Shown here: piece after piece, positions 11,126 through 55,928 of the stretch
How the letters are laid out: each line of letters begins with the position of its first letter
How positions within the stretch are numbered: the first letter of the stretch is position 1
From: an uncultured Planctomycetia bacterium
Lineage (GTDB): Bacteria > Omnitrophota > Gorgyraeia > CAYWPX01
Assembly (NCBI GenBank): GCA_964460615.1
Contig: CAYWPX010000001.1
Coordinates: forward strand, 49,826-113,825
Reading direction: 5' to 3'
Length of the DNA stretch: 64,000 bases
The notes under the pieces: generated by a model
Database searches by the model: none
Seen by the model: the letters and a program-made list of their open reading frames with translations, nothing else
Told to the model about the DNA's origin: nothing
Program-made: the position numbers and the translations under genes

Positions 11126-11129
11126 TAAG

Positions 11130-12326: not shown

Positions 12327-12327
12327 T

Positions 12328-13125: not shown

Positions 13126-13154
13126 AGTTTTATTAAAAATGGAGTCAGCCAATA

Positions 13155-13814: not shown

Positions 13815-13816
13815 AT

Positions 13817-15223: not shown

Positions 15224-15259
15224 AAATAGATAATCATTAAAGAAGAGGGGAAGATAAAA

Positions 15260-16786
15260 GTGCAAAAAGTGAATAAAAATTCAAATAAAGATTTTAAAGT
15301 GTTGTTCATCTATTATAACCCGCGCAAAATGTCCTTGGTCCCGCCTTCTATCGCGCTTTTTTCAAGCTTATTAAAATCAATAGATGTAAAAGTGGATCTA
15401 TTTGATACAACACTTTACGAAAAACAGGATAATCTTGATTCTGACGCTATTGAAGAGAAAAATCTTACCGTAAAACCTTTTTCCGAGAGCCTAAATGTCA
15501 CTAAAAAGGTTAATTATCGAAGTGCCGATATAGCTGGCGACCTGGATAGCCTGATAAAAAGCTTTAAGCCGGATCTATTAGCGGTAACAGCAGTGGAAAG
15601 TACGTTTGAAGGGAGTATTGCGCTTTTAAAAAAGATCCGTCATCATAAGATCCCTACAATTATCGGAGGGGTTTTTGCAACATTTGCCCCGGAGATCGTA
15701 ATATCATATCCTGAAATCGATATGTTATGCATCGGAGAAGGTGAGAAGGCGATCATAGAGTTAGTTCTAAAGATGCGCGAAGGCAAGGATTATTCGGATG
15801 TAACCAATCTGTGGGTAAAAAAGCAAGACGGCTCAGTTATTAAAAATCCTATAGCGAGGTTAGTTAGTCTGGACGAAAACCCCCTCCCTGATATGTCGAT
15901 TTTTGAGGACTCAAGGTTTTATAGGGCGATGGGCGGCAAGATTTATAAGATGTTCGCTGTGGAGACGCATAGAGGATGCATATTTAGCTGCGGATTCTGC
16001 AATTCGCCTTTACAGAATAGGTTCTACAAGGAAAATACAAATCAGATATATTTTCGCCACAAATCCATCGAGAAGGTCAAAGAAGAGATCGACTATTATG
16101 TAAAATTAGGCGCCGAGTATATTTTTTTATGGGCGGACAATTTTTTTGCATATCCTGACAAGTTGATTGATGAATTCTGTGAAATGTATAAAGAGTATAA
16201 GCTGCCTTTTTATTGCCAGTCTCACCCTGAGAATCTTAAAAAAGAGAGGATCCTGAAGCTTAAGGAGATCGGGATGCAGCGTATCGGCATAGGTATTGAG
16301 CATGGCAATGAGGATTTCAGGAAAAGGGTAGTCAATAGAAACTACACCAATGCTATGCTTATAGAGCGTCTTAAGATGCTTACGGACCTTGGTGTTGAAT
16401 ATAGCGTAAATAATATAATAGGATTTCCTGAAGAGACGCCGGAACTTGTCATGGACACTATTGAGCTTAATCGCCAGCATACGGCAAGTGACATAAGCTG
16501 TTCGATATTTACCCCTTTTCACGGGACACCTTTAAGAAAACTGGCGCTTGAAAGAGGTTATTTGAAAGATCCGGAGCTCATTGCGCCGTCAAATGCCGAT
16601 TCGTCGGTTCTTGTAATGCCTGATTTCAGTCAGGATGAGATATTAGGTAAACAGCGTACATTTATTTTTTATATCAAATTTCCGAAGGATCGCTGGGGCG
16701 AGATCAGTAAAGCAGAAAAATTGACTCCCGAAGGTGACAGGATATGGGCGAGACTCAGAGAAGAGTTCGTAAAGACGTATCTATAA
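15260..16786 (+). CDS. cobalamin-binding radical SAM protein, class B, paralog 2 (GTG start)
   Basis: VLFIYYNPRK...SIALFSSLL B12-domain, then GCIFSCGFC. 508 aa. A GAGGGGA RBS precedes the GTG start. Confidence 0.8.
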   Translation: MQKVNKNSNKDFKVLFIYYNPRKMSLVPPSIALFSSLLKSIDVKVDLFDTTLYEKQDNLDSDAIEEKNLTVKPFSESLNVTKKVNYRSADIAGDLDSLIKSFKPDLLAVTAVESTFEGSIALLKKIRHHKIPTIIGGVFATFAPEIVISYPEIDMLCIGEGEKAIIELVLKMREGKDYSDVTNLWVKKQDGSVIKNPIARLVSLDENPLPDMSIFEDSRFYRAMGGKIYKMFAVETHRGCIFSCGFCNSPLQNRFYKENTNQIYFRHKSIEKVKEEIDYYVKLGAEYIFLWADNFFAYPDKLIDEFCEMYKEYKLPFYCQSHPENLKKERILKLKEIGMQRIGIGIEHGNEDFRKRVVNRNYTNAMLIERLKMLTDLGVEYSVNNIIGFPEETPELVMDTIELNRQHTASDISCSIFTPFHGTPLRKLALERGYLKDPELIAPSNADSSVLVMPDFSQDEILGKQRTFIFYIKFPKDRWGEISKAEKLTPEGDRIWARLREEFVKTYL

Positions 16787-16806: not shown

Positions 16807-18618
16807 ATGAATCTAATTTTCCTTGAAGAGATTGAGCAGATCGATAGTGTAGCCGGATTACTTAAAGCTGGTTACAGGGCCGTTGCCTTTACGCCGAAAG
16901 TTGTGCATGAGCTGGAAAAAAAAGGGATCGCTTACCTTCGGCCGGAGGATTACTATGATAATGACGCTTTGCAAAGAGAATGGACAGGTTATTATGATCT
17001 ATCCTGGAAGATCATCCGTTCTTTAGACGACGAGCTATTAAGTAAAACTGATGATTTTGATCTGTCGAAACTGAAGATAAGGCCTTTGGAAGCAAATGCA
17101 CAGATGTTTTTTAATATGTTTCGCCAGATCGTTATCAATATCTATATCCTAGAAAAGATCTTTGAAAAGGAATCGCCAAAAAAAGTTATTTACCCGGAAG
17201 AGATCCCCGATAAGTTGACATACAGGCTATATTTTGAAGATGAGTCGGTGGTTTCTTATCTTGTTCCTATCTTTGCCAAGATAAAAGGTTTTGAGGAAGG
17301 ATCCTTCAGTTGGCAAAAAACAGTTGTTTTGCCGGGGATCAAAAGAAGCGAACTCCCGTCTATTAGAAAATTTATCAGGGAGTCTTTATTAAGAGTAGCG
17401 GGCCATTTTAAGCATAACCCTAATAAGAGATCCATATTGGTTTTTCATAATGGGTATGATTTGAATTATATAATACCGCTGCTTTTAAAAAAGGGCCATA
17501 AGGTCATTGATTTTGAGGCATTTTTAAAGAATACTAAGAAGGTATCTGAAAGAGCATATTATCATCTCGTCTTTTCCAAGGATAATAATTATGAAAGTCT
17601 TTTTGAATACAGATCGGTCAACTTTTTCCCACTTGTTAAAACAAGGCTTGCTTTTTATCTGGACAATGTTCTGCCGGGGTATATCTCTTTAAAGCATGAT
17701 CTGGAAAAATTATTAAAAAGATCAGATATTCTTATCGGAGGGCATAGCCCGTCAAGGGTATACGAGAATATCCTTTGCGCTTTGGCAAAAGACAGGGGTA
17801 TTAAGGTCGTTTCATTCCAGCACGGTGGGTACGGGGAGAGATTTAACCATATTCTTCATGTGAATGACTTTGATAATCCTTTGTGTGATTATTTTCTATC
17901 CTGGGGAGAAGGTGTAAAGAGGTATGCAGTAAAATACAACCTTAACCGGATAAAGATCATACCGGTCGGCTCCGCCTGGCTTGACAGCCTTGCGATAAAA
18001 AACCATCATGAGGGATCGGCTGATGATAGCATTAAAACTATTCTTTATATACCTACATCTTTGAGAGTAAAGCCGAGATCCAGGATGCTTCCCGGCGAGT
18101 ATTCGGATAATACCTATTATGATCTTCAGAAAAAAATTATTTCGTCGGTTGCTAAAGATCCTAATGTCAAATTGTTAGTTAAGCTTCACCCGGGGGATGA
18201 GGCGGTTAATCCAATAATAGATTTTATAAAAGAGGCAAATCTTAATAACTGTTCGATCGTGTATGGAGAGCTTTCGAGGTGGTTTGAGGGTTCGGACCTT
18301 GTTATTTCGGATTTTATGTCGACGACCCTATTAGTGGCTTTGAGCATGAAAAAGAACGTATTTTTTTATATAGATAGTACGGCAATGCTTCTTGAAAGAG
18401 ACGCCCGGGCGATGATCGACAAAGCTGCTTATACCTTTACAAGTATCAATGATTTTTTGGGATCGATATCCGATTATGTAGATTCACCCGGCAAATTTCC
18501 CAGAAAGACCGGTGATGAGTTCATAATTAATTACGGTACATATATGAATGACGGACAAAGCGGAAAAAGGGCGGTTGAGGCGATCGAAAAAATATTTCCG
18601 GGGGCCAGTTTAAACTGA
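16807..18618 (+). CDS. hypothetical protein, possibly a GT-B-like transferase (TagF or capsule-biosynthesis-like C-terminal half); candidate nonulosonate transferase
   Basis: 603 aa and soluble. Only weak resemblance in the C-terminal region (GGHSPSRVYENILCA...VSFQHGGYGE; DLVISDFMSTTL). The assignment comes mainly from position after the CMP-sugar genes. Confidence 0.3.
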   Translation: MNLIFLEEIEQIDSVAGLLKAGYRAVAFTPKVVHELEKKGIAYLRPEDYYDNDALQREWTGYYDLSWKIIRSLDDELLSKTDDFDLSKLKIRPLEANAQMFFNMFRQIVINIYILEKIFEKESPKKVIYPEEIPDKLTYRLYFEDESVVSYLVPIFAKIKGFEEGSFSWQKTVVLPGIKRSELPSIRKFIRESLLRVAGHFKHNPNKRSILVFHNGYDLNYIIPLLLKKGHKVIDFEAFLKNTKKVSERAYYHLVFSKDNNYESLFEYRSVNFFPLVKTRLAFYLDNVLPGYISLKHDLEKLLKRSDILIGGHSPSRVYENILCALAKDRGIKVVSFQHGGYGERFNHILHVNDFDNPLCDYFLSWGEGVKRYAVKYNLNRIKIIPVGSAWLDSLAIKNHHEGSADDSIKTILYIPTSLRVKPRSRMLPGEYSDNTYYDLQKKIISSVAKDPNVKLLVKLHPGDEAVNPIIDFIKEANLNNCSIVYGELSRWFEGSDLVISDFMSTTLLVALSMKKNVFFYIDSTAMLLERDARAMIDKAAYTFTSINDFLGSISDYVDSPGKFPRKTGDEFIINYGTYMNDGQSGKRAVEAIEKIFPGASLN

Positions 18619-20188: not shown

Positions 20189-21805
20189 ATGAATAAATCT
20201 GCTAAACTAAGGGAGTTATTTAGAAAAGGTAATATCGTAAAGGTCATGGGTTCGCACGATGCGCTTGGCGCAAAATTGGCGGAAAATAGCGGGTTTGACG
20301 CTGTATGGGCAAGCGGCCTTGAGATATCCACGAGCCACGGCGTTCCTGATGCCAATATCCTTACAATGACCGATTTTCTTGACGCGGCAATTTCGATGAA
20401 TGAGGCAGTATCCGTACCGGTGGTTGCCGATTGCGATACTGGTTTCGGAAATTCCAATAATGTAATACACATGGTAAAAAAATATGAAGCGGCGGGCATT
20501 GCGGCTGTCTGCATAGAAGATAAACATTTCCCTAAAGTAAATAGTTTTATTCCGGGCAGGCAGGAGCTTGCGCCTATATCGGAATTCGTAGGAAAGATCT
20601 TGGCCGCCAAGAATGCCCAGTCTACCAAGGATTTTATGGTAATAGCGCGGGTCGAAGCGCTTATAGCCGGCTGGGGAATGGAAGAAGCTCTTAAAAGAGC
20701 CAATGCCTATAGAGATGCCGGAGCCGATGCTATCCTTATACACAGTAAGGCAAAGGACCTTAAAGAGATAAAAGAATTTATTTCTAAATGGAAAAACCGG
20801 TTGCCTTTAGTTGTTGTCCCGACCACATATTATAAAGTCAGCGCTAAAGAGCTTGAATCGATCGGTATAAAGATGGTTATATATGCCAACCAGGGTATGC
20901 GTGCATCAATTAAGGCTATGAGCGATACATATTCCGAGATTATAAGATCCGGCTCGACTGCTTCTATTGAAGATAGTATTGCATCGATGAAAGAGGTTTT
21001 TGAACTCCAGGGAATGACCAAGATGAAGGAGAACGAACTTATTTATTCCGATACTGATACCGATAAAGTTACAGCAATAATTCCTTCCGCCGGAGACCAT
21101 CTTGAAGAATATTCTATGAAGGAGATCTCTAAGGATATACCTATTTCTATGATAGATATAAACGGTAAGCCGCTTCTCCAGAGGCAGCTTGAAGTATTGA
21201 ACCGCTCTAAGGTATATGATGTAAGGGTTGTTGCCGGATACAAGAAAGATAAGATCAACGTTGAGGGAGTAAAGATAGTTTCCAATGACCTCTACAAAAA
21301 AACAGGGATACTTTTTTCTATCATGAAGGCACTTGAAGAAGTGAATTCAAAGGTTTTTATCAGTTATGGCGATGTCATTTTTGACCACATTATTTTTAAC
21401 CGATTATCCGAAAGTCCCAAGGATATAACAATATTAGTAGATAAAACATATGAGGACAAAAATTACGGCCCGGAAAAAAAGATCGATTTTGCCAATGTAA
21501 AAGCCAACCATCCGGGCTCCCAGAGAGTTCTCAACTCTCATTCTATAAAGGTTGTTACAAAGATAAGCCGCAGCGGCGCTGCCTATGAATTCCCGGGTTT
21601 GACATTCCTTTCTTCCAAAGGAGTAAGCATAATAAAAGAGATTTATAAAAAGAATAAACATAGGCTTCTCAGTAGCGGGCTGGGGGATATACTAAATCTT
21701 GCCATAAAAAATGGTTATGAGGTCTCTGCGATAGAGGCTAATTCGGGTTGGATGGAGATACATTCTCTTGAAGATTATAAACTGGCGTGCAAATTAGTGA
21801 GATAA
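20189..21805 (+). CDS. pepM: phosphoenolpyruvate phosphomutase fused to a C-terminal nucleotidyltransferase (Fom1/PntC-like PepM-cytidylyltransferase)
   Basis: N-terminal VMGSHDALGAKLAE..GFDAVWASGLEISTSHGVPDAN and EDKHFPKVNSFIPGRQ match PEP mutase. The C-terminal about 250 aa (AIIPSAGDHLE...INGKPLLQRQLEVL) is a nucleotidyltransferase fold. Confidence 0.85.
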   Translation: MNKSAKLRELFRKGNIVKVMGSHDALGAKLAENSGFDAVWASGLEISTSHGVPDANILTMTDFLDAAISMNEAVSVPVVADCDTGFGNSNNVIHMVKKYEAAGIAAVCIEDKHFPKVNSFIPGRQELAPISEFVGKILAAKNAQSTKDFMVIARVEALIAGWGMEEALKRANAYRDAGADAILIHSKAKDLKEIKEFISKWKNRLPLVVVPTTYYKVSAKELESIGIKMVIYANQGMRASIKAMSDTYSEIIRSGSTASIEDSIASMKEVFELQGMTKMKENELIYSDTDTDKVTAIIPSAGDHLEEYSMKEISKDIPISMIDINGKPLLQRQLEVLNRSKVYDVRVVAGYKKDKINVEGVKIVSNDLYKKTGILFSIMKALEEVNSKVFISYGDVIFDHIIFNRLSESPKDITILVDKTYEDKNYGPEKKIDFANVKANHPGSQRVLNSHSIKVVTKISRSGAAYEFPGLTFLSSKGVSIIKEIYKKNKHRLLSSGLGDILNLAIKNGYEVSAIEANSGWMEIHSLEDYKLACKLVR

Positions 21806-22299
21806 ATATTATGATAGACACAAAATTATTTTTAAAAAAACTTAAAAAAACAGGTTATACTTTTTTTGCAGGCGTGCCCTGTTCCATATTAAAGAATCTC
21901 CTTAAAGAGATTGAGAATGATCCGGAAATTTCATATATCCCAGCTGTGCGCGAAAACGCAGCGCTTGGGGTAGCAAGCGGAGCATATCTAACCGGCAAGA
22001 AACCTTGCGTACTTATGCAGAATTCCGGCCTGGGTAATATTGTGAACGCTATAACATCTTTTAATCATATTTATAAGATCCCGTCGCTAGTGATTATGAC
22101 CTGGAGAGGGTTTGAGGGCAAGGATGCGCCGGAACATATTATCATGGGTAAAATCATGACTGAATTATTGGACGAACTTAAGATGCCTTATAAGGTAATA
22201 GGTGAAAACTTTGATATGGATATAGAGTGGGCGGATGGAATCATCAGTAAGACTTCATTGCCTGCAGTATTGATACTTAAGGATGGGCTATTAAAATGA
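21787..22299 (+). CDS. phosphonopyruvate decarboxylase, alpha (N-terminal TPP-enzyme) subunit
   Basis: 170 aa, FFAGVPCSILKNL. It lies immediately downstream of pepM and is coupled to the beta subunit (ATGA overlap). Confidence 0.75.
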   Translation: MQISEINIMIDTKLFLKKLKKTGYTFFAGVPCSILKNLLKEIENDPEISYIPAVRENAALGVASGAYLTGKKPCVLMQNSGLGNIVNAITSFNHIYKIPSLVIMTWRGFEGKDAPEHIIMGKIMTELLDELKMPYKVIGENFDMDIEWADGIISKTSLPAVLILKDGLLK

Positions 22300-22859
22300 A
22301 AACAAACGACGCCTTAAAAATATTTTTTGATAAATTAGAGGATAATGATGTAGCATTGTTCACGACGGGGTTTACTTCAAGGTTTGCTTTTAATGTCAAG
22401 GAGCGTCCGGCAAACTTTTATATGATAGGCTCGATGGGGCTATTATCTTCGGTCGGACTTGGGATAGCCTTAAATTCAAAAAAGAGGGTGTTTATCTTTG
22501 AAGGCGACGGAAGTCTTTTGATGGACATGGGTACAATGGCAATGATAGCAAAACATAAACCTCAAAATCTTTTTCATATAGTTTTGGATAATAAGTCCTA
22601 TGAATCTACCGGAGGTCAAAAGACCATAAGTAGCGATATCGATTTTTCCAAAGTTGCCGAAAATCTTGGATACAATGAAGTATATAAAATCTATAATTCA
22701 AAGGACCTGGAAAATGAGATCTCTGATATCGTCGATTCAACTGGGCCGGTATTTATTCATCTGGAGATAAAAAATGATCCGGATTCTCATGTGGGAAGAG
22801 TTTCGATAGACCCGGATAAGCTTACAGAAAGATTAAAAAAGGAATTGAAGGCAAAATAA
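22296..22859 (+). CDS. phosphonopyruvate decarboxylase, beta (TPP-binding) subunit
   Basis: GSMGLLSSVGLGIALNSKKRVFIFEGDGSLLMDMG is the GDG-x-N TPP-binding motif. 187 aa. Confidence 0.75.
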   Translation: MKTNDALKIFFDKLEDNDVALFTTGFTSRFAFNVKERPANFYMIGSMGLLSSVGLGIALNSKKRVFIFEGDGSLLMDMGTMAMIAKHKPQNLFHIVLDNKSYESTGGQKTISSDIDFSKVAENLGYNEVYKIYNSKDLENEISDIVDSTGPVFIHLEIKNDPDSHVGRVSIDPDKLTERLKKELKAK

Positions 22860-22860
22860 T

Positions 22861-24327
22861 ATGATAAGAAAAATTCTGCTTATTAATCCTCCGAATACAA
22901 TGCCCGCTGACAGTGTGAGGCGAATCGGAGAGCCGCTGGGGCTTTTGTACCTTGGAGCTGTACTAAAAAATAACTGTTTTGAAGTCGAAGTATTTGATAT
23001 GGCCTGTCTAGGCTATGATAATTGCGAAACTCTGGACGGTTATGTGACATACGGTTCAACTGACGATGAACTTAAGGAAAGGATAATGTCCTCAAAGCCG
23101 GATGTTATCGGGGTAAGCTGCATGTTTACCGCCAGAGAGAAAAATACCTTCAGGGTCTGTAGTGTCGTAAGAAGTGTCGATAAATCTATTCCGATCATTG
23201 TGGGCGGGTTGCATCCAAGCCTTTTTCCTGAAAGGTTCATTGACGGCGGATATGCGGATTTTGTCATAACAGGCGAAGGTGAGGAGCGAATAGTAAAACT
23301 TGTAAATTGCATAAAAGAAGGCAAGCTCCCTGATTTTGACGGGGTCGCTTTTAAAGATAAAGATATATTCAGGCTTAACCCGATGATTATGAGGATCGAG
23401 GATCTTGATTCTATTCCATATCCGGATAGAAGCCTGGTAGATATGGAACGCTATATTAAGATAGGAGCTCCATATGCCCCGTTTTCGTATTGCCAGAGAG
23501 TTGCCCAGATACTTGCAACACGCGGTTGTCCAAACAGGTGCAATTTTTGTTCTACAGTGAGCTACTGGGGCAGAAAGATAAGGGCCAGGTCTGTAGATAA
23601 TATTATCGGCGAAATGAGGATACTCAAAGACCAGTACAATATAGAAGAGGTCCAGTTCGTCGATGACAATATGACCTTTAATAGAAAATTTGCTGAAGAA
23701 CTTTTTTTGAAGATGAAACAGTTTGATTTTAAGTGGTGTACGCCCCATGGGCTTATGTTTAATACCCTGGATAAGAACCTTATAAAGATAATGGCCGAAA
23801 GCGGCGCTTACCAGCTTACATTTGCCATAGAGAGTGGCTCAGAGAGGGTGCTCAGGGATATTATCCATAAAAATGTAAACCTTAAGATGGTTCGTGATAT
23901 TGTCGCTGAGGCCCACAAATATGATATAAGCGTCCACGGAATGTTTGTAATGGGTTTCCCGGGAGAGAAAAAAGAAGAGATACAGAAATCTCTTGAGTTT
24001 CCGTTCTGGGCTGAGTTTGACAGTGTCTCTTTTTTTATAGTGAACCCGCTTCCAGGATCAGAGCTTTATGAAGTATGTAAAAATAAGAATTATATAATCG
24101 AAAACTACAGCGCTATGGATTTCAAATCGGTAAATATCAATATCCCGAAGGATTCTCTAGATTACAACATGGATCCCGACGAACTACTGAAGCTTGTTGA
24201 TGAAAAGACCCATGAATTTAACGAGTGGGCAAAGCAAAAATTTCCAGAGAGGTGGAAAAGAAAGTTCGACAGGTATCTGCAAAACCATCCTAAAGACAAT
24301 AAGATAATAATGGGGAGGGTTACTTAA
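22861..24327 (+). CDS. cobalamin-binding radical SAM protein, class B, paralog 3 (Fom3-like genomic context)
   Basis: B12-domain (KILLINPP...LGLLYLGAVL), then GCPNRCNFC. 488 aa. It sits between ppd and the AEP transaminase. Confidence 0.8.
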   Translation: MIRKILLINPPNTMPADSVRRIGEPLGLLYLGAVLKNNCFEVEVFDMACLGYDNCETLDGYVTYGSTDDELKERIMSSKPDVIGVSCMFTAREKNTFRVCSVVRSVDKSIPIIVGGLHPSLFPERFIDGGYADFVITGEGEERIVKLVNCIKEGKLPDFDGVAFKDKDIFRLNPMIMRIEDLDSIPYPDRSLVDMERYIKIGAPYAPFSYCQRVAQILATRGCPNRCNFCSTVSYWGRKIRARSVDNIIGEMRILKDQYNIEEVQFVDDNMTFNRKFAEELFLKMKQFDFKWCTPHGLMFNTLDKNLIKIMAESGAYQLTFAIESGSERVLRDIIHKNVNLKMVRDIVAEAHKYDISVHGMFVMGFPGEKKEEIQKSLEFPFWAEFDSVSFFIVNPLPGSELYEVCKNKNYIIENYSAMDFKSVNINIPKDSLDYNMDPDELLKLVDEKTHEFNEWAKQKFPERWKRKFDRYLQNHPKDNKIIMGRVT

Positions 24328-24328
24328 A

Positions 24329-25393
24329 ATGATTATTTTTTCTCCGGGTCCTGCGAATATATCAAGCCGCGTTCGAAGATCTCTTTTGAAGCCGGATATC
24401 TGCCACAGGGATACGGAGTTCACTGATATTTTTTCCAATACCAGATCCCTCATTAAAGAGATTTTTTGTCTCAAGGGTTCTTATGAAGTTGTTTTTTTCG
24501 GAGGGTCCGGGACTGCGGCGATAGACAGTGTGATAAGCTCATTCGGCGGATATAAAAAGAAACTACTTATAATCTCCAACGGTATCTACGGCGAGAGGGC
24601 TTCGAGCATCGCAAGGATTTATAATATTGATTTTGACGAGATAAATTTCGGATGGGGCAACCAAATAGATCTTATTCAGATAGAGGATGCTTTAAGGAGC
24701 AGGAAATTCGGGGCGCTGTATTTTGTGCATCATGAAACTACAACAGGAATTCTGAACCCGCTTAAGGAGATCAGTAAACTGGCCAAAAAATACGATAACC
24801 TGGTGCTGGTAGACGCTGTAAGCAGTTTAGCCGGCGAAGAGTTTGACATCGAAGAGCTGAAGCTTGATGCCGTAATAGCCTCAAGCAATAAATGCATAAG
24901 GGCGATCCCCGGCATATCTTTTGTTATAGCTAGTAACGAGTTTATTAATAATGCCGGTTTTTGTAAGAGCGGATCTTTTTATACATCTTTTAAAGGACAT
25001 TTTGATATGGAGCTAAAAGGCCAGACGCCTTTTACGCCACCCGTGCAGACGTTTTATGCCTTGGAAGAGGCCCTTAAGGAGTTGAAGCAAGAGACGCTTT
25101 CAAAAAGGATCAAAGGCTTTTCTGAAATTACAAATCTTTTAAGAAACGGCCTCGAGAAGCTTGGGATAGAGTATCTGATCCCGAGGGCTTTAATGTCAAA
25201 TACCATGACAGTGATAAAGACCCCGAAGGGGAAGACTTACGAAGATCTGCACAGAGAGTTCAAAAAACATGGTTTTGTAATTTATTCTTCGCAGGGAAAA
25301 CTCGCTGGTCATACTTTCAGGCTCGGGACCGTAGGATTGATTTCAAAGAAGGATATCAAAGGATTTTTATCGGTATTTAAGGGGTTATTATGA
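24329..25393 (+). CDS. phnW: 2-aminoethylphosphonate--pyruvate aminotransferase-like class V aminotransferase
   Basis: IIFSPGPANISSRVRRSLLKPDICHRDTEF is the typical PhnW/AGXT-family N-terminus. 354 aa. It lies in a pepM-ppd context. Confidence 0.7.
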   Translation: MIIFSPGPANISSRVRRSLLKPDICHRDTEFTDIFSNTRSLIKEIFCLKGSYEVVFFGGSGTAAIDSVISSFGGYKKKLLIISNGIYGERASSIARIYNIDFDEINFGWGNQIDLIQIEDALRSRKFGALYFVHHETTTGILNPLKEISKLAKKYDNLVLVDAVSSLAGEEFDIEELKLDAVIASSNKCIRAIPGISFVIASNEFINNAGFCKSGSFYTSFKGHFDMELKGQTPFTPPVQTFYALEEALKELKQETLSKRIKGFSEITNLLRNGLEKLGIEYLIPRALMSNTMTVIKTPKGKTYEDLHREFKKHGFVIYSSQGKLAGHTFRLGTVGLISKKDIKGFLSVFKGLL

Positions 25394-26097
25394 GGGCAAT
25401 AATACTTGCCGCTGGCGTAGGAAAACGCCTTTCAAAATTTACACATAAGCCAAAATCTCTTTTAAAGATAAATAACGAAACCCTGATAACAAGGATCATA
25501 AGGCTTCTGAATGAGCATGATATCAGGGATATTGTTGTAGTTACCGGGTTTAAACAGGGGCTATTAAAAAGCGAGATAAGTAAATGCGGAAGGAAAGTCA
25601 AATTTATTCATAATAGCCTTTTTAAAAAAGGGAGCATAATATCTCTTTGGAAGGCCGCCGGTTATTTTAATAAAGATATCCTGATAATGGATGCAGATCT
25701 ATTTTTTGAGAGAGCGCTCATTAAAAAAGTTGTAGATTCGGAAAAGAAAGATTTCTTTCTTATTGATTCATCGAATAAGGTGGATAATGAAGCTGTTATA
25801 GTAGGTTTTAAGAGATCAAGAGCGGTTAAGCTTGAAAGAGGCCTTAAGGGTAAATACTCTCCGATAGGCGAATGGGCTGGTTTTCTAAAATTAAGCAGAA
25901 ATAGCGCCAAATATTTAAAAAAAATATTGGGAGATCTTATTAATAACGGCGATGAAGATTCCGGGTATGAATTTATTATACCAAGGCTTTTTAATAAAGT
26001 TAATATTTCCTATGAATTGATAGACGGATTAAAGTGGGTAGAGATCGATTTTCCAAAAGATGTGGTAAAAGCAAAGGGTTTAAGGATTATTGAATAA
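25390..26097 (+). CDS. LicC-like nucleotidyltransferase (CTP:phospho-alcohol/phosphonate cytidylyltransferase)
   Basis: MRAIILAAGVGKRL...KPKSLLKINNETLI. 235 aa. It is adjacent to a CDP-alcohol phosphotransferase. Confidence 0.6.
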   Translation: MRAIILAAGVGKRLSKFTHKPKSLLKINNETLITRIIRLLNEHDIRDIVVVTGFKQGLLKSEISKCGRKVKFIHNSLFKKGSIISLWKAAGYFNKDILIMDADLFFERALIKKVVDSEKKDFFLIDSSNKVDNEAVIVGFKRSRAVKLERGLKGKYSPIGEWAGFLKLSRNSAKYLKKILGDLINNGDEDSGYEFIIPRLFNKVNISYELIDGLKWVEIDFPKDVVKAKGLRIIE

Positions 26098-26926
26098 AGG
26101 AGGCAAAGTGAGCTTTTCTGAAGTAAGAAATGAAGTTTATGGCTATCACAGAAAGTACTATTCCTATATATTCAACTGGCCATGGTATTCATACAGAAGG
26201 TACAAGGCCATTTTTTATCTCGAAGTTGCGAGTGTAATGGTTTTTTTCTCCCTAAAGACAAAAATCACTCCCAATCAGCTGACTTTGTCGTATGTGCTTT
26301 TGAGTTTTATTGCCGGGTTATTGTTATCAATACCATGCAGGATAGCGGTAATTCTGGCTGTAATATTATTTTTCGTAAAACCCGCTATTGACTGGGCTGA
26401 TGGCGCTCTTGCCAGGATCAAAAAAACAACATCTATTACGGGGGATATCCTTGACAATTATGCCGCGGCATTAAGCTGGGTAATATTATGGGTTTCGATA
26501 GGGTTTTATTTGGGGAATTCGTTTAACAATATCTTCTATGTAATAACTGTTTTTATACCGATGATCTTTGCTATTGATATATATCCAAATATGAGAGAAA
26601 GGTTCATATATAGCTACTTTAATAAAAAAGAATACAGGATCATAGATAATAAGTCTTTTTCCGAAGGCGGTCCTCTCGGTAGATCGCGTATAGAGATCAT
26701 TAAATCGTTTGTCGACGGTATCTTTGAGCATAACGCGAGAACCGTTGATCTTATTTTAGCGATGATCGTTTTAGAGCTATTTACTCCTGTAAAGATATTA
26801 TGGGTATACTACTTATCTTTTTTAGTTTGGCAGATAACGACATATATAATCAGGCTATATTTATTTTCATTCAGGAAAAAAGCCGAAGCGGAGTTTGAAA
26901 ATCTGAAAAGAAACCTTTATGAATAA
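26090..26926 (+). CDS. CDP-alcohol phosphatidyltransferase-family membrane protein (head-group transferase)
   Basis: DWADGALARIKKTTSITGDILD matches the D-x2-DG-x2-AR-x8-G-x3-D signature. Multiple TM segments. 278 aa. Confidence 0.55.
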   Translation: MNKGGKVSFSEVRNEVYGYHRKYYSYIFNWPWYSYRRYKAIFYLEVASVMVFFSLKTKITPNQLTLSYVLLSFIAGLLLSIPCRIAVILAVILFFVKPAIDWADGALARIKKTTSITGDILDNYAAALSWVILWVSIGFYLGNSFNNIFYVITVFIPMIFAIDIYPNMRERFIYSYFNKKEYRIIDNKSFSEGGPLGRSRIEIIKSFVDGIFEHNARTVDLILAMIVLELFTPVKILWVYYLSFLVWQITTYIIRLYLFSFRKKAEAEFENLKRNLYE

Positions 26927-28007
26927 AATACGAGAAAATACTTATTCATGCGTCTATTGTTATAATAAACTTCGATTTGATGGCAAAGTTTTTATCTGCA
27001 ATAATTGTTCCAAAAAGTTCGAATTAAGAAACGGTATTCCCATACTTACCAGAATGGAGCGCTATTGGTGCAATTTTTCAAAAGACCTTATGAAAAAACT
27101 AAATATTGACGCTCACTCAAATGGCTGGAAGGATGCGATCAAAAAAAATATCAGCGGTAATGTTCTGGATCATATCTCGGCAAGGAACAGGGTAGATTTC
27201 AGGTTTGTGCTCCCCGATCTTAAGGATAAGTTGGTTCTTGATGTCGGTTCCATGTGGGGAGGCATTTCGGTGCCTATCTCTGATTATGCAAAAGAGGTGT
27301 ACTCGGTCGATACGACTTTTGAGACTTTGGAATTATTAAAGATCAGGGCTGAACAGGAAAATGTCAATAACCTGAATATAGCGCTTTCCTCCGCCCGGAA
27401 TCTCCCGTTCAGCGATAACTATTTTGATGTGGTTCTTTTAATAGGAGTTCTTGAGTGGCTTGGAGCGGATTATGATTTTGTAGCAAGCGAGCATTACGGG
27501 AAGCGCTCTAAAGACAGGGCAGTTGCAATAAAAAAACCCACTGAGCTTCAGCTAGAAGCCTTAAGCGAGATACAGAGGGTGCTTAAACCGGGCGGCAAGG
27601 TGCTGATCGCCATAGAAAACAGATATTTTTACAAATATTTCTTCGGTTATCCGGATCCTCATACGGCTGTGCCTTTTTCGTCCATTCTTCCCAGATTTTT
27701 GGCAAATAAGTATATGAATTTATTCAAGAACAAGAACTATCAGGAATATACCTATTCAATTTTTGGTTATAAAAAGCTTTTGAAGAAATCGAATTTCAAA
27801 AAATTCGATTTTTATGCCTCATCGCCGTCTTACAGGGAGCCGGAAGTCATACTGCCTCTTAATAACCCAAGATATATCAGATATTTCTATGAAAATTTCG
27901 GGCTAAGGGACCTGAAAGGCATAAAAAAATTCATTCCTTGGATTTTAATTAAACTTAATCTGATGAAATATCTGGTTCACAGCTACTTAATTGTCGCGGA
28001 GAAGTAA
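26919..28007 (+). CDS. class I SAM-dependent methyltransferase with N-terminal Cys4 zinc-ribbon (Trm112-like)
   Basis: CVYCYNKL...CNNCSKKF, then LVLDVGSMWGG (motif I) and VVLLIGVLEWL (motif II/III region). 362 aa. Confidence 0.65.
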   Translation: MNKIRENTYSCVYCYNKLRFDGKVFICNNCSKKFELRNGIPILTRMERYWCNFSKDLMKKLNIDAHSNGWKDAIKKNISGNVLDHISARNRVDFRFVLPDLKDKLVLDVGSMWGGISVPISDYAKEVYSVDTTFETLELLKIRAEQENVNNLNIALSSARNLPFSDNYFDVVLLIGVLEWLGADYDFVASEHYGKRSKDRAVAIKKPTELQLEALSEIQRVLKPGGKVLIAIENRYFYKYFFGYPDPHTAVPFSSILPRFLANKYMNLFKNKNYQEYTYSIFGYKKLLKKSNFKKFDFYASSPSYREPEVILPLNNPRYIRYFYENFGLRDLKGIKKFIPWILIKLNLMKYLVHSYLIVAEK

Positions 28008-28998
28008 AATGATAAATCTATTGGAAGATTATATATTAAATAACTGGGAATGCTTTGAGAAAAATCAGAAAAAACCCGGCCTTGTGAGTTTTATTAAATT
28101 AAACGGCCAAAGATCCGATAATGCCGCTTTGAATTTTGCCTTGTTTGTGGATGATGATGATGCTCCGAAATATTTTATTAAGGTAAATAGGCTTACTAAT
28201 GACTTCAGGCAGATAAAAAATGAGTTTGATAATCTGATTAATGTTGAAAGGACCATACCCCCAAGGCTTAAGGATTCTTTTCCGAAGCCGATCTATTTCG
28301 GGGATATGGAAAAGTCGACAAAGGTCATGATCGAGAGTTTTGTCAGCGGTAAAAAAATATACTTAGGCGATATTGCAAAACTGGAGATATTGCTTAAAAA
28401 AAGCTTTGAATGGCTAAAAGAATTTTATTCTGCCACAAAGCGGGATAAAACTTTGACATTTGACCTATCGGGCATAAAGAAAAGATATTATGAATTAAGA
28501 TCCGGATCAGTTTCAAAAGAGCTTGATCCTAAATTTGAAAAAGTAATGAAGGAATTCAGCAACATTGATAAAAGATCAGTTAATATCTCTGCTTCGCAGG
28601 GTGATTTTGATTTTGATAATATTGTTTTTGATAACGGTTCTCCCAAAATCCTGGACTGGGAAGACTTTAAATCGGATAGCCATCCATTTCTGGATGCAGA
28701 ATTCATGATCTTTAATACTGCGCTATATTTCTACAGGAATGTAGAGCATATCGAAAGTTTTAAAAAATTCTTTTCGGTCAATTCAAACACCAGGGTTATT
28801 GCCGAGTCGTATTTGACGGATTATTGCAAATTTCTTGGTGTGAATATTGGGCTTTTCCTTGTTGCGGCTATAAACGATACGTTGGATTTCCTAGACAAAG
28901 GTTACGGAAATCATTTAAAGGTTCCGATGCAGTCCTGGGATTTTTTTGAGTGCCTGTTGGATCTTGCTTTAGAAATGAGGGCTGATGGTCCAAAATAA
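27991..28998 (+). CDS. protein-kinase-like fold phosphotransferase (APH/choline-kinase family-like), catalytic-loop His replaced by Gln
   Basis: QGDFDFDNIVF matches the xGDxxxxN Brenner-type motif, and ILDWEDF resembles the IDxE motif. Weak overall. 335 aa. Confidence 0.4.
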   Translation: MSRRSKMINLLEDYILNNWECFEKNQKKPGLVSFIKLNGQRSDNAALNFALFVDDDDAPKYFIKVNRLTNDFRQIKNEFDNLINVERTIPPRLKDSFPKPIYFGDMEKSTKVMIESFVSGKKIYLGDIAKLEILLKKSFEWLKEFYSATKRDKTLTFDLSGIKKRYYELRSGSVSKELDPKFEKVMKEFSNIDKRSVNISASQGDFDFDNIVFDNGSPKILDWEDFKSDSHPFLDAEFMIFNTALYFYRNVEHIESFKKFFSVNSNTRVIAESYLTDYCKFLGVNIGLFLVAAINDTLDFLDKGYGNHLKVPMQSWDFFECLLDLALEMRADGPK

Positions 28999-30481
28999 AA
29001 AAATTAAAAAGGTTCTACTTATTACTCCTCCGGCGTATACCTTCAAAGATATGCCGGATATTAATCCTTTGCCACCCATCGGCTTAGGGTATTTAGCGGC
29101 AATTTTGGAAAAAAAGGGAATAGAGGTCGAGATATTCGATTCTCTTATTGAGGGGATCGGTAAGGAAGAGCTTATTGAGGATAATATAATAAGGATCGGC
29201 TCGTCGTTTGGCGATATTGAAGCGAAGATAAGGTCGTTCTCTCCTGACATTGTGGGGGTGAGTAACCTTTTTTCAAGGCAGGCCAGAAATGCTCACGAGA
29301 TCTATAAGATTACTAAATCAATAGATCCTAAAATAATTGTAATTGCCGGAGGGGCGCACCCGACAGTAATGCCCGAGAGCGTAATTTTAGATCAGAATGT
29401 TGATTTCGTGATCTTAGGTGAAGGCGAAAGGACTTTGGAGGATCTGATAGGCCACCTCGAAGGGAAAATAGATTTAGGAAAGCTTAACGGTATCGCCTAC
29501 AGAACCGGTTCCAAGCCTACGATTGTGCCGAAGATTAATTTTATACTTGATATCGATAGCCTTCCTTTTCCGGCAAGGCATCTGATGAAACTGGATAAAT
29601 ACTTTGGCCTTAGCGAGTCTCACGGAAAGAGGCGATGCAAAAGATTTACTCCTATAGTTACCTCGAGAGGGTGCCCGGTTGGCTGTACCTTTTGTACGGC
29701 ACATCATGTTTGGGGCAGGAATTTCCGTAAACGGAGCCCGGAGAACGTCCTAGCGGAGATGAGGGAGTTAAAGGATAAATATAACATCGAAGAGCTGCTT
29801 TTTGAGGATGACAATGTAACATTGGATGTGAAACGTGCCGAGTCCATCTTTGATATGATGATCTCGGAAAAACTTAATTTTAAATGGGATACGCCGAATG
29901 GTGTTGCAGCCTTTGCTTTGGACGAGAGACTGATAAAAAAGATGCAGGATGCCGGCTGCTACCATCTTAATATCGCGGTGGAATCCGGAAGTCCCAGAGT
30001 TCTTAAAGAGGTCATCAAAAAGCCTCTGGATCTGGATAAAGTCGAAAGGCTTATCAAATTTACCAGAAAGATTAACCTGGAATCCTGTATATTTCTTATT
30101 ATTGGAATGCCCGGTGAGACGCTTAAAGATATGTGGGACAGTTATAAGTATGCCAAAAAAATAGGCGTTTACAAGCCGTTTGTCTCTGTGGCAACTCCGT
30201 ATCCCGGGTCGCTTCTTTATGATCTTTGTTTGGAAAAAAAATATATCAAAAAGGGATTTTCTTTGAATGATCTATATATAACAAGCTGCAGCATTCAAAC
30301 CCGGGAATGGAACAGCGAGGATGTTAGAAAGCTTTTCTCGAAGGGGTTCTTTTATCTGCAGATGGAGCATTATAAAAAGCACCCTATTGAATTTGCAAAA
30401 AAAGCAGCAGTAGCGATCCTGAAAAACCCTATAAGGACATTAAAGAAAGTAGGATTATTATGTCAAAATATGAAAAGTTAA
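28985..30481 (+). CDS. cobalamin-binding radical SAM protein, class B, paralog 4
   Basis: KVLLITPP...IGLGYLAAIL B12-domain, then GCPVGCTFC. 498 aa. Confidence 0.8.
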   Translation: MVQNKKIKKVLLITPPAYTFKDMPDINPLPPIGLGYLAAILEKKGIEVEIFDSLIEGIGKEELIEDNIIRIGSSFGDIEAKIRSFSPDIVGVSNLFSRQARNAHEIYKITKSIDPKIIVIAGGAHPTVMPESVILDQNVDFVILGEGERTLEDLIGHLEGKIDLGKLNGIAYRTGSKPTIVPKINFILDIDSLPFPARHLMKLDKYFGLSESHGKRRCKRFTPIVTSRGCPVGCTFCTAHHVWGRNFRKRSPENVLAEMRELKDKYNIEELLFEDDNVTLDVKRAESIFDMMISEKLNFKWDTPNGVAAFALDERLIKKMQDAGCYHLNIAVESGSPRVLKEVIKKPLDLDKVERLIKFTRKINLESCIFLIIGMPGETLKDMWDSYKYAKKIGVYKPFVSVATPYPGSLLYDLCLEKKYIKKGFSLNDLYITSCSIQTREWNSEDVRKLFSKGFFYLQMEHYKKHPIEFAKKAAVAILKNPIRTLKKVGLLCQNMKS

Positions 30482-55924: not shown

Positions 55925-55928
55925 TCAT

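What the first reader, a model, noticed from the sequence alone, without database searches (positions are those of the whole stretch)
22861..24327. Fom3-like placement of a B12 radical SAM between ppd and the AEP transaminase, next to a PepM-cytidylyltransferase fusion
In fosfomycin biosynthesis the PepM-cytidylyltransferase fusion Fom1 makes a cytidylylated phosphonate. The class B radical SAM Fom3 then C-methylates that cytidylyl-phosphonate. Here the same two unusual components, a PepM-CT fusion and a B12-rSAM, are juxtaposed, but with a transaminase instead of FomC and Fom4. This argues for a C-methylated aminophosphonate such as 2-aminopropylphosphonate, or a 1-methyl-AEP-type head group, installed on a glycan. 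I do not know such a head group to be reported in glycoconjugates.
Basis: inference. Interest (0 to 1): 0.75.

Follow-up and report, generated by a model that had tools for sequence, protein, structure and literature searches.

The report
Fom3-like methylase in aminophosphonate cluster
A vitamin-B12-dependent radical SAM gene sits inside a cell-surface phosphonate pathway and belongs to an uncharacterised sister group of the fosfomycin methylase Fom3, so it probably adds a methyl group to activated 2-aminoethylphosphonate, giving a head group not yet reported in nature.

Summary
ORF 22861-24327 is an intact 488-aa cobalamin radical SAM enzyme. It lies one base after a split Ppd and one base before an AEP transaminase, downstream of a PepM-nucleotidyltransferase fusion.

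- **Phylogeny:** In NJ trees it falls in a well-supported clade of 41 sequences. That clade groups with the Sden_1168 family and Fom3 in 71-92% of replicates, and never with a local paralog alone.
- **Context:** Clade members sit beside PepM/Ppd in 14 of 23 metagenome loci, in shuffled gene orders. The rS_d clade does so in 1 of 23.
- **Fusions:** Some members are fused to a PntC-like nucleotidyltransferase or to a class V aminotransferase.
- **Pathway branch:** The target and Sden_1168 clades travel with aminotransferases. Fom3-type clades travel with FomC-like alcohol dehydrogenases.

These results support C-methylation of a cytidylylated aminophosphonate.

One premise is wrong. PepM-nucleotidyltransferase fusions are the majority form, and this one is LicC/PntC-type, not Fom1-type.

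Three things remain untested: the substrate, the carbon methylated, and whether the acceptor is a glycan or a lipid.

I rate it a new variant of a known kind, interest about 0.6.

The parts
20189..21805 (+). PEP mutase with a C-terminal LicC/PntC-like (PF12804) nucleotidyltransferase domain
   Evidence: PF13714 scores 207.5 bits and PF12804 38 bits. TIGR02320 scores 338 bits, above the cutoff of 319.55. The EDKHFPKVNS motif is at residue 110. The best PDB match of the CT domain is LicC, 1jyk.
21787..22299 (+). Phosphonopyruvate decarboxylase, N-terminal TPP half
   Evidence: PF02776 scores 41.7 bits. The same split arrangement occurs in L093, L098 and L163.
22296..22859 (+). Phosphonopyruvate decarboxylase, C-terminal TPP half
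   Evidence: PF02775 scores 63.8 bits.
22861..24327 (+). Target: cobalamin-dependent radical SAM enzyme of a new clade sister to the Sden_1168 family and Fom3; predicted C-methyltransferase acting on a cytidylylated aminophosphonate
   Evidence: Domains and motif. NF038361 scores 352 bits, below the cutoff of 575. It is 33% identical to Fom3 over 486 aa. Tree. Synteny and fusions. The AF2 model has pLDDT 93.5 and a class B rSAM fold.
24329..25393 (+). AEP-type class V aminotransferase (PhnW/AepZ-like)
   Evidence: PF00266 scores 94.9 bits. TIGR03301 scores 330.7 bits, just under the cutoff of 360.8.
25390..26097 (+). Stand-alone PntC-like nucleotidyltransferase
   Evidence: PF12804 scores 50.4 bits. 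The best PDB match is 6pd1, the T. denticola nucleotidyltransferase/aminotransferase. This is the NTase type fused to target-clade rSAMs in P0090 and P0118.
26090..26926 (+). Membrane CDP-alcohol phosphotransferase homologue with a degenerate motif; candidate phosphonyl-head-group transferase
   Evidence: PF01066 scores 37 bits. It has 3-4 hydrophobic segments, and its motif is DxxDGxxAR-x8-G-x3-D-x3-A, so the fourth Asp is absent. It is conserved next to target orthologues in L002, L084, L093, L102 and L163.
26919..28007 (+). Class I SAM methyltransferase that travels with the transferase (possible N-methylase)
   Evidence: Pfam methyltransferase domains. Orthologues follow the CDP-OH_P_transf gene in L002, L084, L093, L102 and L163.
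27991..28998 (+). Unknown 335-aa protein, fused to the methyltransferase in relatives
   Evidence: No Pfam hit. It aligns with the C-terminal half of the ~720-aa MTase ORFs of L093 (E 2e-11) and L084 (E 2e-5).
28985..30481 (+). Paralog d: B12 radical SAM of the same superclade; membership of the phosphonate module is uncertain and it more likely belongs to the sugar part
   Evidence: Superclade support is 91-96%. Its wider clade lacks PepM/Ppd in 22 of 23 loci. It travels with the DegT-GT2 genes in L083, but co-occurs with target orthologues in L002, L083 and L084.

Best explanation
The gene most likely encodes a class B (methylcobalamin-dependent) radical SAM methyltransferase dedicated to a phosphonate head-group pathway.

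Inferred pathway:
1. PepM and Ppd make phosphonoacetaldehyde.
2. The class V transaminase makes 2-aminoethylphosphonate (AEP).
3. A PntC-type nucleotidyltransferase makes CMP-AEP.
4. The target enzyme C-methylates the CMP conjugate.
5. The methylated head group stays CMP-activated, since there is no FomD-type hydrolase.
6. The CDP-alcohol-phosphotransferase homologue passes it to a surface glycan or a lipid. In relatives a LicD does this.

Inferred mechanism, by analogy with Fom3 acting on CMP-2-hydroxyethylphosphonate:
- The enzyme cleaves SAM to a 5'-deoxyadenosyl radical.
- The radical abstracts a hydrogen from the two-carbon chain, most plausibly at C2, the carbon bearing nitrogen.
- The substrate radical takes the methyl group from methylcobalamin.
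- The product is CMP-(C-methyl)AEP, for example CMP-2-aminopropylphosphonate.

Shown: the enzyme class, the clade placement, and the conserved linkage to PepM, Ppd, aminotransferase and nucleotidyltransferase genes. Inferred: methylation as the reaction, the CMP-AEP substrate, the carbon attacked, and the acceptor.
For: 1. **Enzyme class.** It has B12-binding and Radical_SAM domains and a CxxxCxxC motif. The model is confident and has a class B rSAM fold.
2. **Family scores.** Its best family is NF038361 (Sden_1168) at 352 bits. Fom3 itself scores 300 bits on that model. PhpK and the other families score 152 bits or less.
3. **Phylogeny.** In NJ trees of 152 sequences the target clade (n=41) has bootstrap 97-100. 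Target + Sden_1168 + Fom3 is recovered in 71-92% of replicates. Target + paralog d is recovered in 0 of 600.
4. **Synteny in shuffled orders.** Examples are PepM-rSAM-Ppd (L096), Ppd-NTase-rSAM (L099) and AEPT-rSAM-CDP-OH_P_transf (L093). L164, from Magnetococcales, has a bare five-gene cassette of rSAM, PepM-NTase, Ppd, AEPT and NTase.
5. **Counts in loci with at least 4 kb of flank.** PepM/Ppd are present in 14 of 23 and an NTase in 18 of 23. The rS_d clade has PepM/Ppd in 1 of 23.
6. **Rosetta-stone fusions.** These are NTase-rSAM (P0090, P0118, P0121), aminotransferase-rSAM (P0116), and a CT-aminotransferase gene next to the rSAM in L102.
7. **Branch partition.** Class V aminotransferases accompany the target clade (13/23) and the Sden_1168 clade (6/7). 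FomC-like Fe-ADH accompanies Fom3-type clades: 6/6 Streptomyces loci, 2/4 metagenomic loci, and directly adjacent in L116 and L120. L097 carries both pairs side by side.
8. **Precedent.** Fom3 acts on the CMP conjugate of HEP (PMC8158854).
Against: - No biochemical data exist for any member of the clade.
- Profile scores show the target, Fom3, Sden_1168 and rS_d clades as roughly equidistant. The internal branches are therefore short, and only NJ, not ML, trees could be built.
- Nine of 23 loci show no PepM/Ppd within reach. These include the closest relative L083 (7.3 kb), the 21-kb loci L002 and L102, and a basal subclade.
- Some target-clade clusters (L100, L110) have no aminotransferase of the AEP type.
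- The nearest characterised relative, SD_1168, was shown to do P-methylation in vitro, and its real substrate is unknown (PMC9204698).
- Some cobalamin radical SAM enzymes are not methylases.
Confidence: 0.55

Rival explanations
1. The enzyme performs the true Fom3 reaction. It methylates CMP-2-hydroxyethylphosphonate to CMP-2-hydroxypropylphosphonate, and the transaminase serves a separate AEP branch or acts later.
For: The enzyme is 33-38% identical to Fom3 across its full length. Several target-clade clusters (L089, L100, L110) pair it with a Fom1-type PF01467-PepM and LicD and lack an AEP transaminase.
Against: No FomC-like alcohol dehydrogenase is present in the window. Among 23 target-clade loci only L097 has one, and there it sits nearer a separate Fom3-like rSAM. 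True Fom3-like clades do carry the dehydrogenase.
Confidence: 0.12
2. The enzyme methylates before amination. It converts phosphonoacetaldehyde, or a CMP conjugate of it, to 2-oxopropylphosphonate, which the transaminase then turns into 2-aminopropylphosphonate.
For: The gene order Ppd-rSAM-transaminase occurs in the window, L098 and L163. An aminotransferase-rSAM fusion exists, P0116.
Against: Gene order varies widely between loci. NTase-rSAM fusions point to a cytidylylated substrate. I know of no precedent for radical methylation of an aldehyde carbon.
Confidence: 0.08
3. The enzyme is a P-methyltransferase that makes a methylphosphinate, as PhpK does and as SD_1168 does in vitro.
For: The best NCBIfam model is named 'Sden_1168 family ... 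P-methyltransferase'. The Sden_1168 clade is the NJ sister group in 61-72% of replicates.
Against: The score of 352 bits is far below the family cutoff of 575, and the PhpK family scores only 110 bits. No genes for making an H-phosphinate are present, and CMP-AEP has no P-H bond (inference from pathway chemistry). The physiological reaction of SD_1168 is itself unknown (PMC9204698).
Confidence: 0.05
4. The enzyme acts on the phosphonate intermediate but does not methylate it. Instead it catalyses another cobalamin radical SAM reaction, such as a rearrangement, a dehydration-type reaction or other C-C bond chemistry.
For: Class B radical SAM enzymes include non-methylases such as AprD4, OxsB and BchE. 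AprD4 is the top structural match.
Against: Both characterised members of the surrounding superclade (Fom3 and SD_1168) are methylases. AprD4 is only 18% identical.
Confidence: 0.1
5. The enzyme modifies a sugar or nucleotide sugar of the glycan, and its position between ppd and the transaminase is incidental.
For: The window is a 64-kb glycan cluster with five B12 radical SAM genes. The closest relative, L083, shows no phosphonate genes within its 7.3 kb.
Against: Linkage to PepM/Ppd is seen in 14 of 23 loci in shuffled orders. The Magnetococcales cassette has no glycan genes around it. Fusions to the nucleotidyltransferase and the aminotransferase also argue against this.
Confidence: 0.07

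Closest known systems
Fom3 (Streptomyces wedmorensis), cobalamin radical SAM C-methyltransferase of fosfomycin biosynthesis
   Same: It has the same domain architecture and belongs to the same superclade. It is 33% identical over 486 aa, and 38% identical to the L001 orthologue. It is encoded with PepM, Ppd and a cytidylyltransferase, and it acts on a CMP-phosphonate (PMC8158854).
   Different: It forms a separate clade with bootstrap 98-100. Fom3 clusters carry FomC (Fe-ADH), Fom4 and FomD. The window has none of these and has a transaminase instead. Here the CMP conjugate is presumably kept for transfer rather than hydrolysed.
Sden_1168 / SD_1168 family (NCBIfam NF038361), Shewanella denitrificans
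   Same: It is the best-scoring curated family (352 bits) and the NJ sister clade. It is also linked to PepM, Ppd and a class V aminotransferase, in 6 of 7 loci.
   Different: The target is below the family cutoff of 575. Family members are about 540-560 aa with an N-terminal extension. Only in vitro P-methylation of a surrogate substrate has been shown, and the physiological substrate is unknown (PMC9204698).
Pnt pathway: PntC phosphonate cytidylyltransferases and PepM-nucleotidyltransferase fusions (Rice et al. 2019, PMC6697681)
   Same: The PepM-PF12804 fusion, the AEP transaminase and a stand-alone PntC-like enzyme (best PDB match 6pd1) match the described CMP-AEP cell-surface tailoring pathway.
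   Different: The published pathway has no radical SAM step (the word 'radical' occurs 0 times in that paper). Here a Fom3-like enzyme and a CDP-alcohol phosphotransferase homologue are added.
Fom1 (CyTase-PepM fusion of fosfomycin biosynthesis)
   Same: Both are a PepM fused to a cytidylyltransferase. Relatives of the target (L001, L089, L092, L100, L110) do pair with Fom1-type fusions, and the L001 CyTase domain is 55.6% identical to Fom1's.
   Different: In the window the transferase domain is C-terminal and of family PF12804 (LicC-like). Fom1's is N-terminal and of family PF01467.
PhpK (phosphinothricin P-methylase)
   Same: It is a class B radical SAM enzyme acting in a PepM-derived pathway.
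   Different: It is only a distant relative. TIGR04479 scores 110 bits against a cutoff of 600.

Membership tests
Class B (cobalamin-dependent) radical SAM enzymes | N-terminal B12-binding Rossmann domain plus a radical SAM core with a CxxxCxxC cluster motif | tested here: met
   PF02310 scores 66.9 bits (cutoff 32.1) and PF04055 84.2 bits (cutoff 29.5). The motif is C223/C227/C230 and is invariant in 28 homologues.
Class B (cobalamin-dependent) radical SAM enzymes | Overall fold like solved cobalamin radical SAM enzymes | tested here: met
   The AF2 model has pLDDT 93.5. Foldseek hits to AprD4, TsrM, MgmA, CysS and TokK have E-values of 1e-17 to 1e-21 and TM-scores of 0.6-0.7.
Class B (cobalamin-dependent) radical SAM enzymes | Binds cobalamin and transfers methyl from methylcobalamin | not testable with these tools
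   This needs purified protein.
Sden_1168 family (NF038361, equivalog) | Whole-protein score at or above the curated cutoff of 575 bits | tested here: not met
   The target scores 352.5 bits. True members L134 and L145 score 593 and 582 bits.
Fom3 orthologues | Falls inside the Fom3 clade | tested here: not met
   The Fom3 clade (n=14) and the target clade (n=41) are each recovered separately with 97-100% support. The target is 33% identical to Fom3.
Fom3 orthologues | Cluster context of the hydroxy branch (FomC-type Fe-ADH; Fom4 and FomD in antibiotic clusters) | tested here: not met
   The window has no FomC, Fom4 or FomD homologue. Fe-ADH is present in 1 of 23 target-clade loci.
Fom3 orthologues | Uses a cytidylylated phosphonate as substrate | not testable with these tools
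   Only indirect support exists: NTase-rSAM fusions P0090, P0118 and P0121, and an NTase in 18 of 23 loci.
PhpK family (TIGR04479) | Score at or above the cutoff of 600 bits | tested here: not met
   The target scores 109.7 bits.
PEP mutase (neighbouring gene 20189-21805) | EDKxxxxxNS motif and TIGR02320 score above the cutoff | tested here: met
   The motif EDKHFPKVNS is at residue 110. The score is 338.3 bits against a cutoff of 319.55.
Fom1-type PepM fusion | N-terminal PF01467 CyTase domain | tested here: not met
   The fused domain is C-terminal and of family PF12804. Its best PDB match is LicC (1jyk), and the Fom1 CyTase (5x3d) is not hit.
AEP transaminase PhnW/AepZ (TIGR03301; neighbouring gene 24329-25393) | Score at or above the cutoff of 360.8 bits | tested here: inconclusive
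   The score is 330.7 bits, just below the cutoff and far above any other family.
CDP-alcohol phosphotransferases (neighbouring gene 26090-26926) | Full motif DG-x2-AR-x8-G-x3-D-x3-D | tested here: not met
   PF01066 scores 37 bits, above the cutoff of 22. The last Asp is replaced here by Ala, and it is likewise missing (replaced by another residue) in all cluster-linked homologues examined.

The most novel reading that the evidence does not exclude
The target clade and its sister Sden_1168 family together form an 'amino branch' of phosphonate C-methylases. On this reading they convert CMP-AEP into a C-methylated aminophosphonate, such as 2-aminopropylphosphonate, which has not been reported from nature. 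Atypical CDP-alcohol phosphotransferase or LicD enzymes then install it on surface glycans or membrane lipids. This would occur in many uncultured bacteria (Omnitrophota, Elusimicrobiota, Magnetococcales, Riflebacteria) and in archaea. In some clusters, further B12 radical SAM enzymes embedded in the module (paralog-b type) would elaborate the head group further.
Probability: 0.45. Interest if true: 0.72.

Novelty: new variant of a known kind. Interest (0 to 1): 0.6.

Why it matters
- Phosphonate head groups on cell surfaces have so far been AEP and its N-methyl or hydroxy derivatives. A C-methylated aminophosphonate would be a new natural phosphonate.
- It would also extend Fom3-type chemistry from antibiotic biosynthesis to cell-envelope tailoring.
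- The clade gives a concrete, testable candidate substrate (CMP-AEP) for a group of class B radical SAM enzymes. That group includes SD_1168, whose physiological role has remained unknown since 2014.
- The family is spread across uncultured bacterial phyla and archaea. It may therefore contribute to environmental phosphonate pools and to surface chemistry that resists phosphatases.

Tried and rejected
- **No solved Fom3 structure.** The PDB has none. I recovered the Fom3 sequence indirectly. I read the Fom1 CyTase sequence from a PDB alignment and used it to fetch the S. wedmorensis fom locus.
- **Clade-profile HMM scores.** These did not resolve the order of the target, Fom3, Sden_1168 and rS_d clades, which look about equidistant. 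Only NJ bootstraps separate them. No ML program was available.
- **SD_1168 paper.** The original paper (PMC4362910) is not held, so its cluster description could not be read.
- **Literature searches.** I searched for C-methyl AEP, 2-aminopropylphosphonate, and Fom3-like enzymes in AEP clusters. I found nothing beyond synthetic chemistry and the 3-aminopropylphosphonate of FR-900098.
- **Source organism.** Cluster-member look-up gave no organism names. No identical or near-identical sequence is in the protein collection (best hit 73% identity), so the source organism stays unknown.
- **P-methylation reading.** I considered the reading suggested by the NCBIfam name and rejected it. The score is far below the cutoff, and there is no route to a P-H intermediate.
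- **Pseudogene or chance ORF.** I considered this and rejected it. The protein aligns over its full length and keeps every invariant residue.
Full report
**Observation.**
- The window is a single 64-kb, plus-strand surface-polysaccharide cluster. It carries rml genes, UDP-glucose dehydrogenases, NeuB, three DegT aminotransferases, many glycosyltransferases, two Wzx-type flippases and a WecA-like initiating transferase.
It has a B12-binding domain, a radical SAM domain and the motif C223-x3-C227-x2-C230.
- It starts one base after the second half of a split phosphonopyruvate decarboxylase (Ppd). It ends one base before a class V aminotransferase whose best family is the AEP transaminase (TIGR03301, 330.7 bits, cutoff 360.8).
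- Upstream is a genuine PEP mutase (TIGR02320 above cutoff, motif EDKHFPKVNS) with a C-terminal nucleotidyltransferase domain.
- Downstream are a second nucleotidyltransferase, a CDP-alcohol phosphotransferase homologue, a SAM methyltransferase, an unknown protein and another B12 radical SAM (paralog d).
- The window holds five B12 radical SAM genes in all.

**Correction of a premise.**
About 60% of PEP mutases are fused to nucleotidyltransferases: 33% to PF12804 and 24% to PF01467, the Fom1 type (PMC6697681).
- The fused domain here is C-terminal PF12804. Its best solved relative is LicC, so it is the common PntC-type arrangement for making CMP-AEP, not the Fom1 arrangement.
- The stand-alone transferase best matches the Treponema denticola PntC-aminotransferase structure 6pd1.
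- Several relatives of the target do sit with true Fom1-type PF01467-PepM fusions (L001, L089, L092, L100, L110). The CyTase domain of L001 is 55.6% identical to Fom1's.
- The link between this rSAM clade and cytidylylation therefore holds whichever transferase family is present.

**Getting Fom3.**
- No Fom3 structure or curated model was available.
- I read the Fom1 CyTase sequence from a PDB alignment and located the Streptomyces wedmorensis NRRL 3426 fom locus with it.
- From that locus I took Fom3 (534 aa, L003:5210-6814).
- Fom3 is 33% identical to the target over 486 aa (273 bits) and 34% identical to paralog d. It scores only 98-119 bits with paralogs a and e and gives no hit with b.
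- Fom3 itself scores best on NF038361, the Sden_1168 model, at 300 bits. The target scores 352 bits and paralog d 297 bits.

**Phylogeny.**
- I collected 152 full-length B12 radical SAM proteins. They came from 80 metagenome loci chosen only by similarity to the target, the Streptomyces loci, database hits and the window. I built NJ trees with bootstraps and repeated them with three trimming levels and two distance corrections.
- The target clade (n=41) is recovered in 97-100% of replicates.
- A superclade holds the target, Fom3, Sden_1168 and paralog-d clades, plus two small groups: a three-member L156/L116/L120 group and an L111/L113 pair. It is recovered in 91-96% of replicates.
- Target + Sden_1168 + Fom3 is recovered in 71-92% of replicates. 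These clades, with the L156 group, are split from the paralog-d clade in 72-87%.
- Target + paralog d is never recovered (0 of 600 replicates).
- Paralogs a, b and e lie outside the superclade.
- The marine 540-aa group is the true Sden_1168 family (582-593 bits, cutoff 575). It is the nearest sister of the target clade in 61-72% of replicates.
- Caveat: clade-profile scores show the four clades as about equidistant. The deep branches are short, and I could not run an ML method.

**Genomic context.**
- Among loci with at least 4 kb of flank, target-clade genes have PepM or Ppd nearby in 14 of 23, a nucleotidyltransferase in 18 of 23 and a class V aminotransferase in 13 of 23. The paralog-d clade has PepM/Ppd in 1 of 23 (Fisher p about 8e-5; loci are not independent).
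- Gene orders are shuffled, which argues for functional linkage. Examples:
  - PepM-rSAM-Ppd-NTase (L096)
  - Ppd-NTase-rSAM (L099)
  - PepM-Ppd-NTase-AEPT-rSAM-CDP-OH_P_transf-MTase (L093)
- Named genomes add three further cases:
  - An Omnitrophota MAG is almost syntenic with the window (L163).
  - A Magnetococcales MAG has a bare cassette of rSAM, PepM-NTase, Ppd, AEPT and NTase, flanked by TPR genes (L164).
  - A third MAG (L165) has CDP-OH_P_transf, PepM-NTase, rSAM, AEPT and two NTase genes.
- Archaeal contigs carry the clade too. L001 lies next to ribosomal protein genes, and L102 lies next to an STT3 oligosaccharyltransferase.

**Fusions.**
- P0090, P0118 and P0121 are N-terminal PntC-like nucleotidyltransferase + target-clade rSAM.
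- P0116 is class V aminotransferase + rSAM.
- In L102 the adjacent gene is a PF01467 cytidylyltransferase-aminotransferase fusion.
- Together these link the three steps: amination, cytidylylation and the radical SAM reaction.

**Amino branch versus hydroxy branch.**
- I used FomC, Fom4 and FomD from the fom locus as probes.
- FomC-like Fe-alcohol dehydrogenases accompany Fom3-type clades. They occur in all six Streptomyces loci, in 2 of 4 metagenomic Fom3-like loci, and directly adjacent to the rSAM in L116 and L120.
- They occur in only 1 of 23 target-clade loci and 0 of 7 Sden_1168 loci.
- The single exception, L097, carries both pairs. A Fom3-like rSAM sits near PepM and the dehydrogenase, and a target-clade rSAM abuts an AEP transaminase.
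- The window has no FomD-type CMP hydrolase. This fits retention of the CMP conjugate as a donor for the CDP-alcohol phosphotransferase homologue. In relatives the donor would serve LicD, which is present in 8 of 23 loci.

**Structure.** The AlphaFold model is confident (pLDDT 93.5). It matches solved cobalamin radical SAM enzymes (AprD4, TsrM, MgmA, CysS, TokK) at no more than 20% identity. This confirms the enzyme class but says nothing about the substrate.

**Mechanism proposed (inference).**
- It follows the Fom3 paradigm, in which CMP-HEP is converted to CMP-2-hydroxypropylphosphonate (PMC8158854).
- Reductive cleavage of SAM gives a 5'-deoxyadenosyl radical, which abstracts a hydrogen from the C2 chain of CMP-AEP.
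- The substrate radical takes a methyl group from methylcobalamin, and a second SAM remethylates the cobalamin.
- My estimates are:
  - about 0.8 that the enzyme acts on a phosphonate-pathway intermediate;
  - about 0.65 that the substrate is cytidylylated;
  - about 0.5 that the product is a C-methyl AEP derivative;
  - about 0.3 that C2 is the site.
- Rivals are listed separately:
  - the Fom3 reaction on CMP-HEP;
  - methylation before amination;
  - P-methylation;
  - non-methylating chemistry;
  - a sugar substrate.

**Weak points.**
- Nine of 23 loci show no PepM/Ppd in reach. These include the closest relative L083, which has 7.3 kb holding a DMT transporter, an rSAM-SPASM gene, the target orthologue, the paralog-d orthologue, DegT and GT2.
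- The 21-kb loci L002 and L102 also lack PepM/Ppd.
- L100 and L110 lack an AEP transaminase.
The transferase is a membrane CDP-alcohol phosphotransferase homologue, and its family usually serves lipid or small-alcohol acceptors (my own knowledge). Its motif lacks the fourth Asp.

**Novelty.**
- No curated family covers the clade.
- The Pnt pathway paper does not mention a radical SAM step.
- An inventory of PepM neighbourhoods mentions radical SAM only for Campylobacter (PMC8942020).
- The physiological function of SD_1168 is stated to be unknown (PMC9204698).
- I found no report of a natural C-methyl AEP. The library is incomplete, so this negative is provisional.
- I class the finding as a new variant of a known kind, namely Fom3-type methylation of an activated phosphonate, moved to the aminophosphonate cell-surface pathway.

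Noticed in passing
window 15260-16786 (paralog b); L091:4346-5818; L117:2-1420; L163:9461-10966 and 12830-14305: Close relatives of paralog b lie directly beside phosphonate-type rSAMs in L091, L117 and L163. In the Omnitrophota locus L163, two paralog-a/b-type B12 rSAM genes are embedded inside the phosphonate module, one between the target orthologue and AEPT and one between the NTase and CDP-OH_P_transf. Paralog b may therefore also act on the phosphonate head group rather than on a sugar.
   Followed up: partly
window 26090-26926; also L001, L002, L084, L086, L093, L094, L109, L123: All CDP-alcohol phosphotransferase homologues linked to these clusters carry DxxDGxxAR-x8-G-x3-D-x3-X, with the fourth catalytic Asp replaced by another residue (Ala, Ser, Gly, His and others). 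This suggests a distinct subfamily, perhaps adapted to CMP-phosphonate donors.
   Followed up: partly
window 26919-28007 and 27991-28998: The SAM methyltransferase and the following unknown 335-aa protein correspond to a single fused ORF of about 720 aa in L084 and L093. The pair always follows the CDP-OH_P_transf gene and is a possible N-methylase of the head group.
   Followed up: partly
L097:346-11929: One metagenomic contig carries both a Fom3-like rSAM (with PepM and a FomC-like dehydrogenase) and a target-clade rSAM abutting an AEP transaminase. This suggests two methylated phosphonates are made from one PepM.
   Followed up: partly
L002:5493-15665: The Riflebacteria locus has the target orthologue, AEPT, CDP-OH_P_transf, MTase and a paralog-d orthologue. 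In place of PepM/Ppd it has a transketolase and a transaldolase/FSA gene directly upstream, and no PepM within 10 kb.
   Followed up: no
L102:8133-12934: An archaeal-type locus (STT3 present) has CDP-OH_P_transf, MTase, a target-clade rSAM and a PF01467 cytidylyltransferase-class V aminotransferase fusion. The fusion is analogous to the T. denticola PntC-AEPT fusion but uses the other transferase family.
   Followed up: partly
P0083 (797 aa homologue): A target-clade homologue is interrupted by an insertion of about 210-250 aa carrying intein and HNH endonuclease Pfam domains, so it is an intein-containing radical SAM gene.
   Followed up: no
window 10229-16786: NeuB, a DegT aminotransferase, an rSAM-SPASM protein and a CMP-sugar-type cytidylyltransferase (CTP_transf_3) are followed by the two B12 rSAM paralogs a and b. 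This looks like a nonulosonic-acid module that may be C-methylated.
   Followed up: no
window 16807-18618, 40245-41774, 43039-43920, 50332-51756, 55902-56630, 61306-61860: Six sizeable ORFs inside the cluster have no Pfam match. A similar unannotated 624-aa gene occupies the same position, before the flippase and PepM, in L163.
   Followed up: no
L126:2616-11500 and L128, L131, L133: Metagenomic loci of the paralog-d clade hold three to six tandem B12 radical SAM genes without any phosphonate genes. These are very rSAM-rich clusters of unknown product.
   Followed up: no
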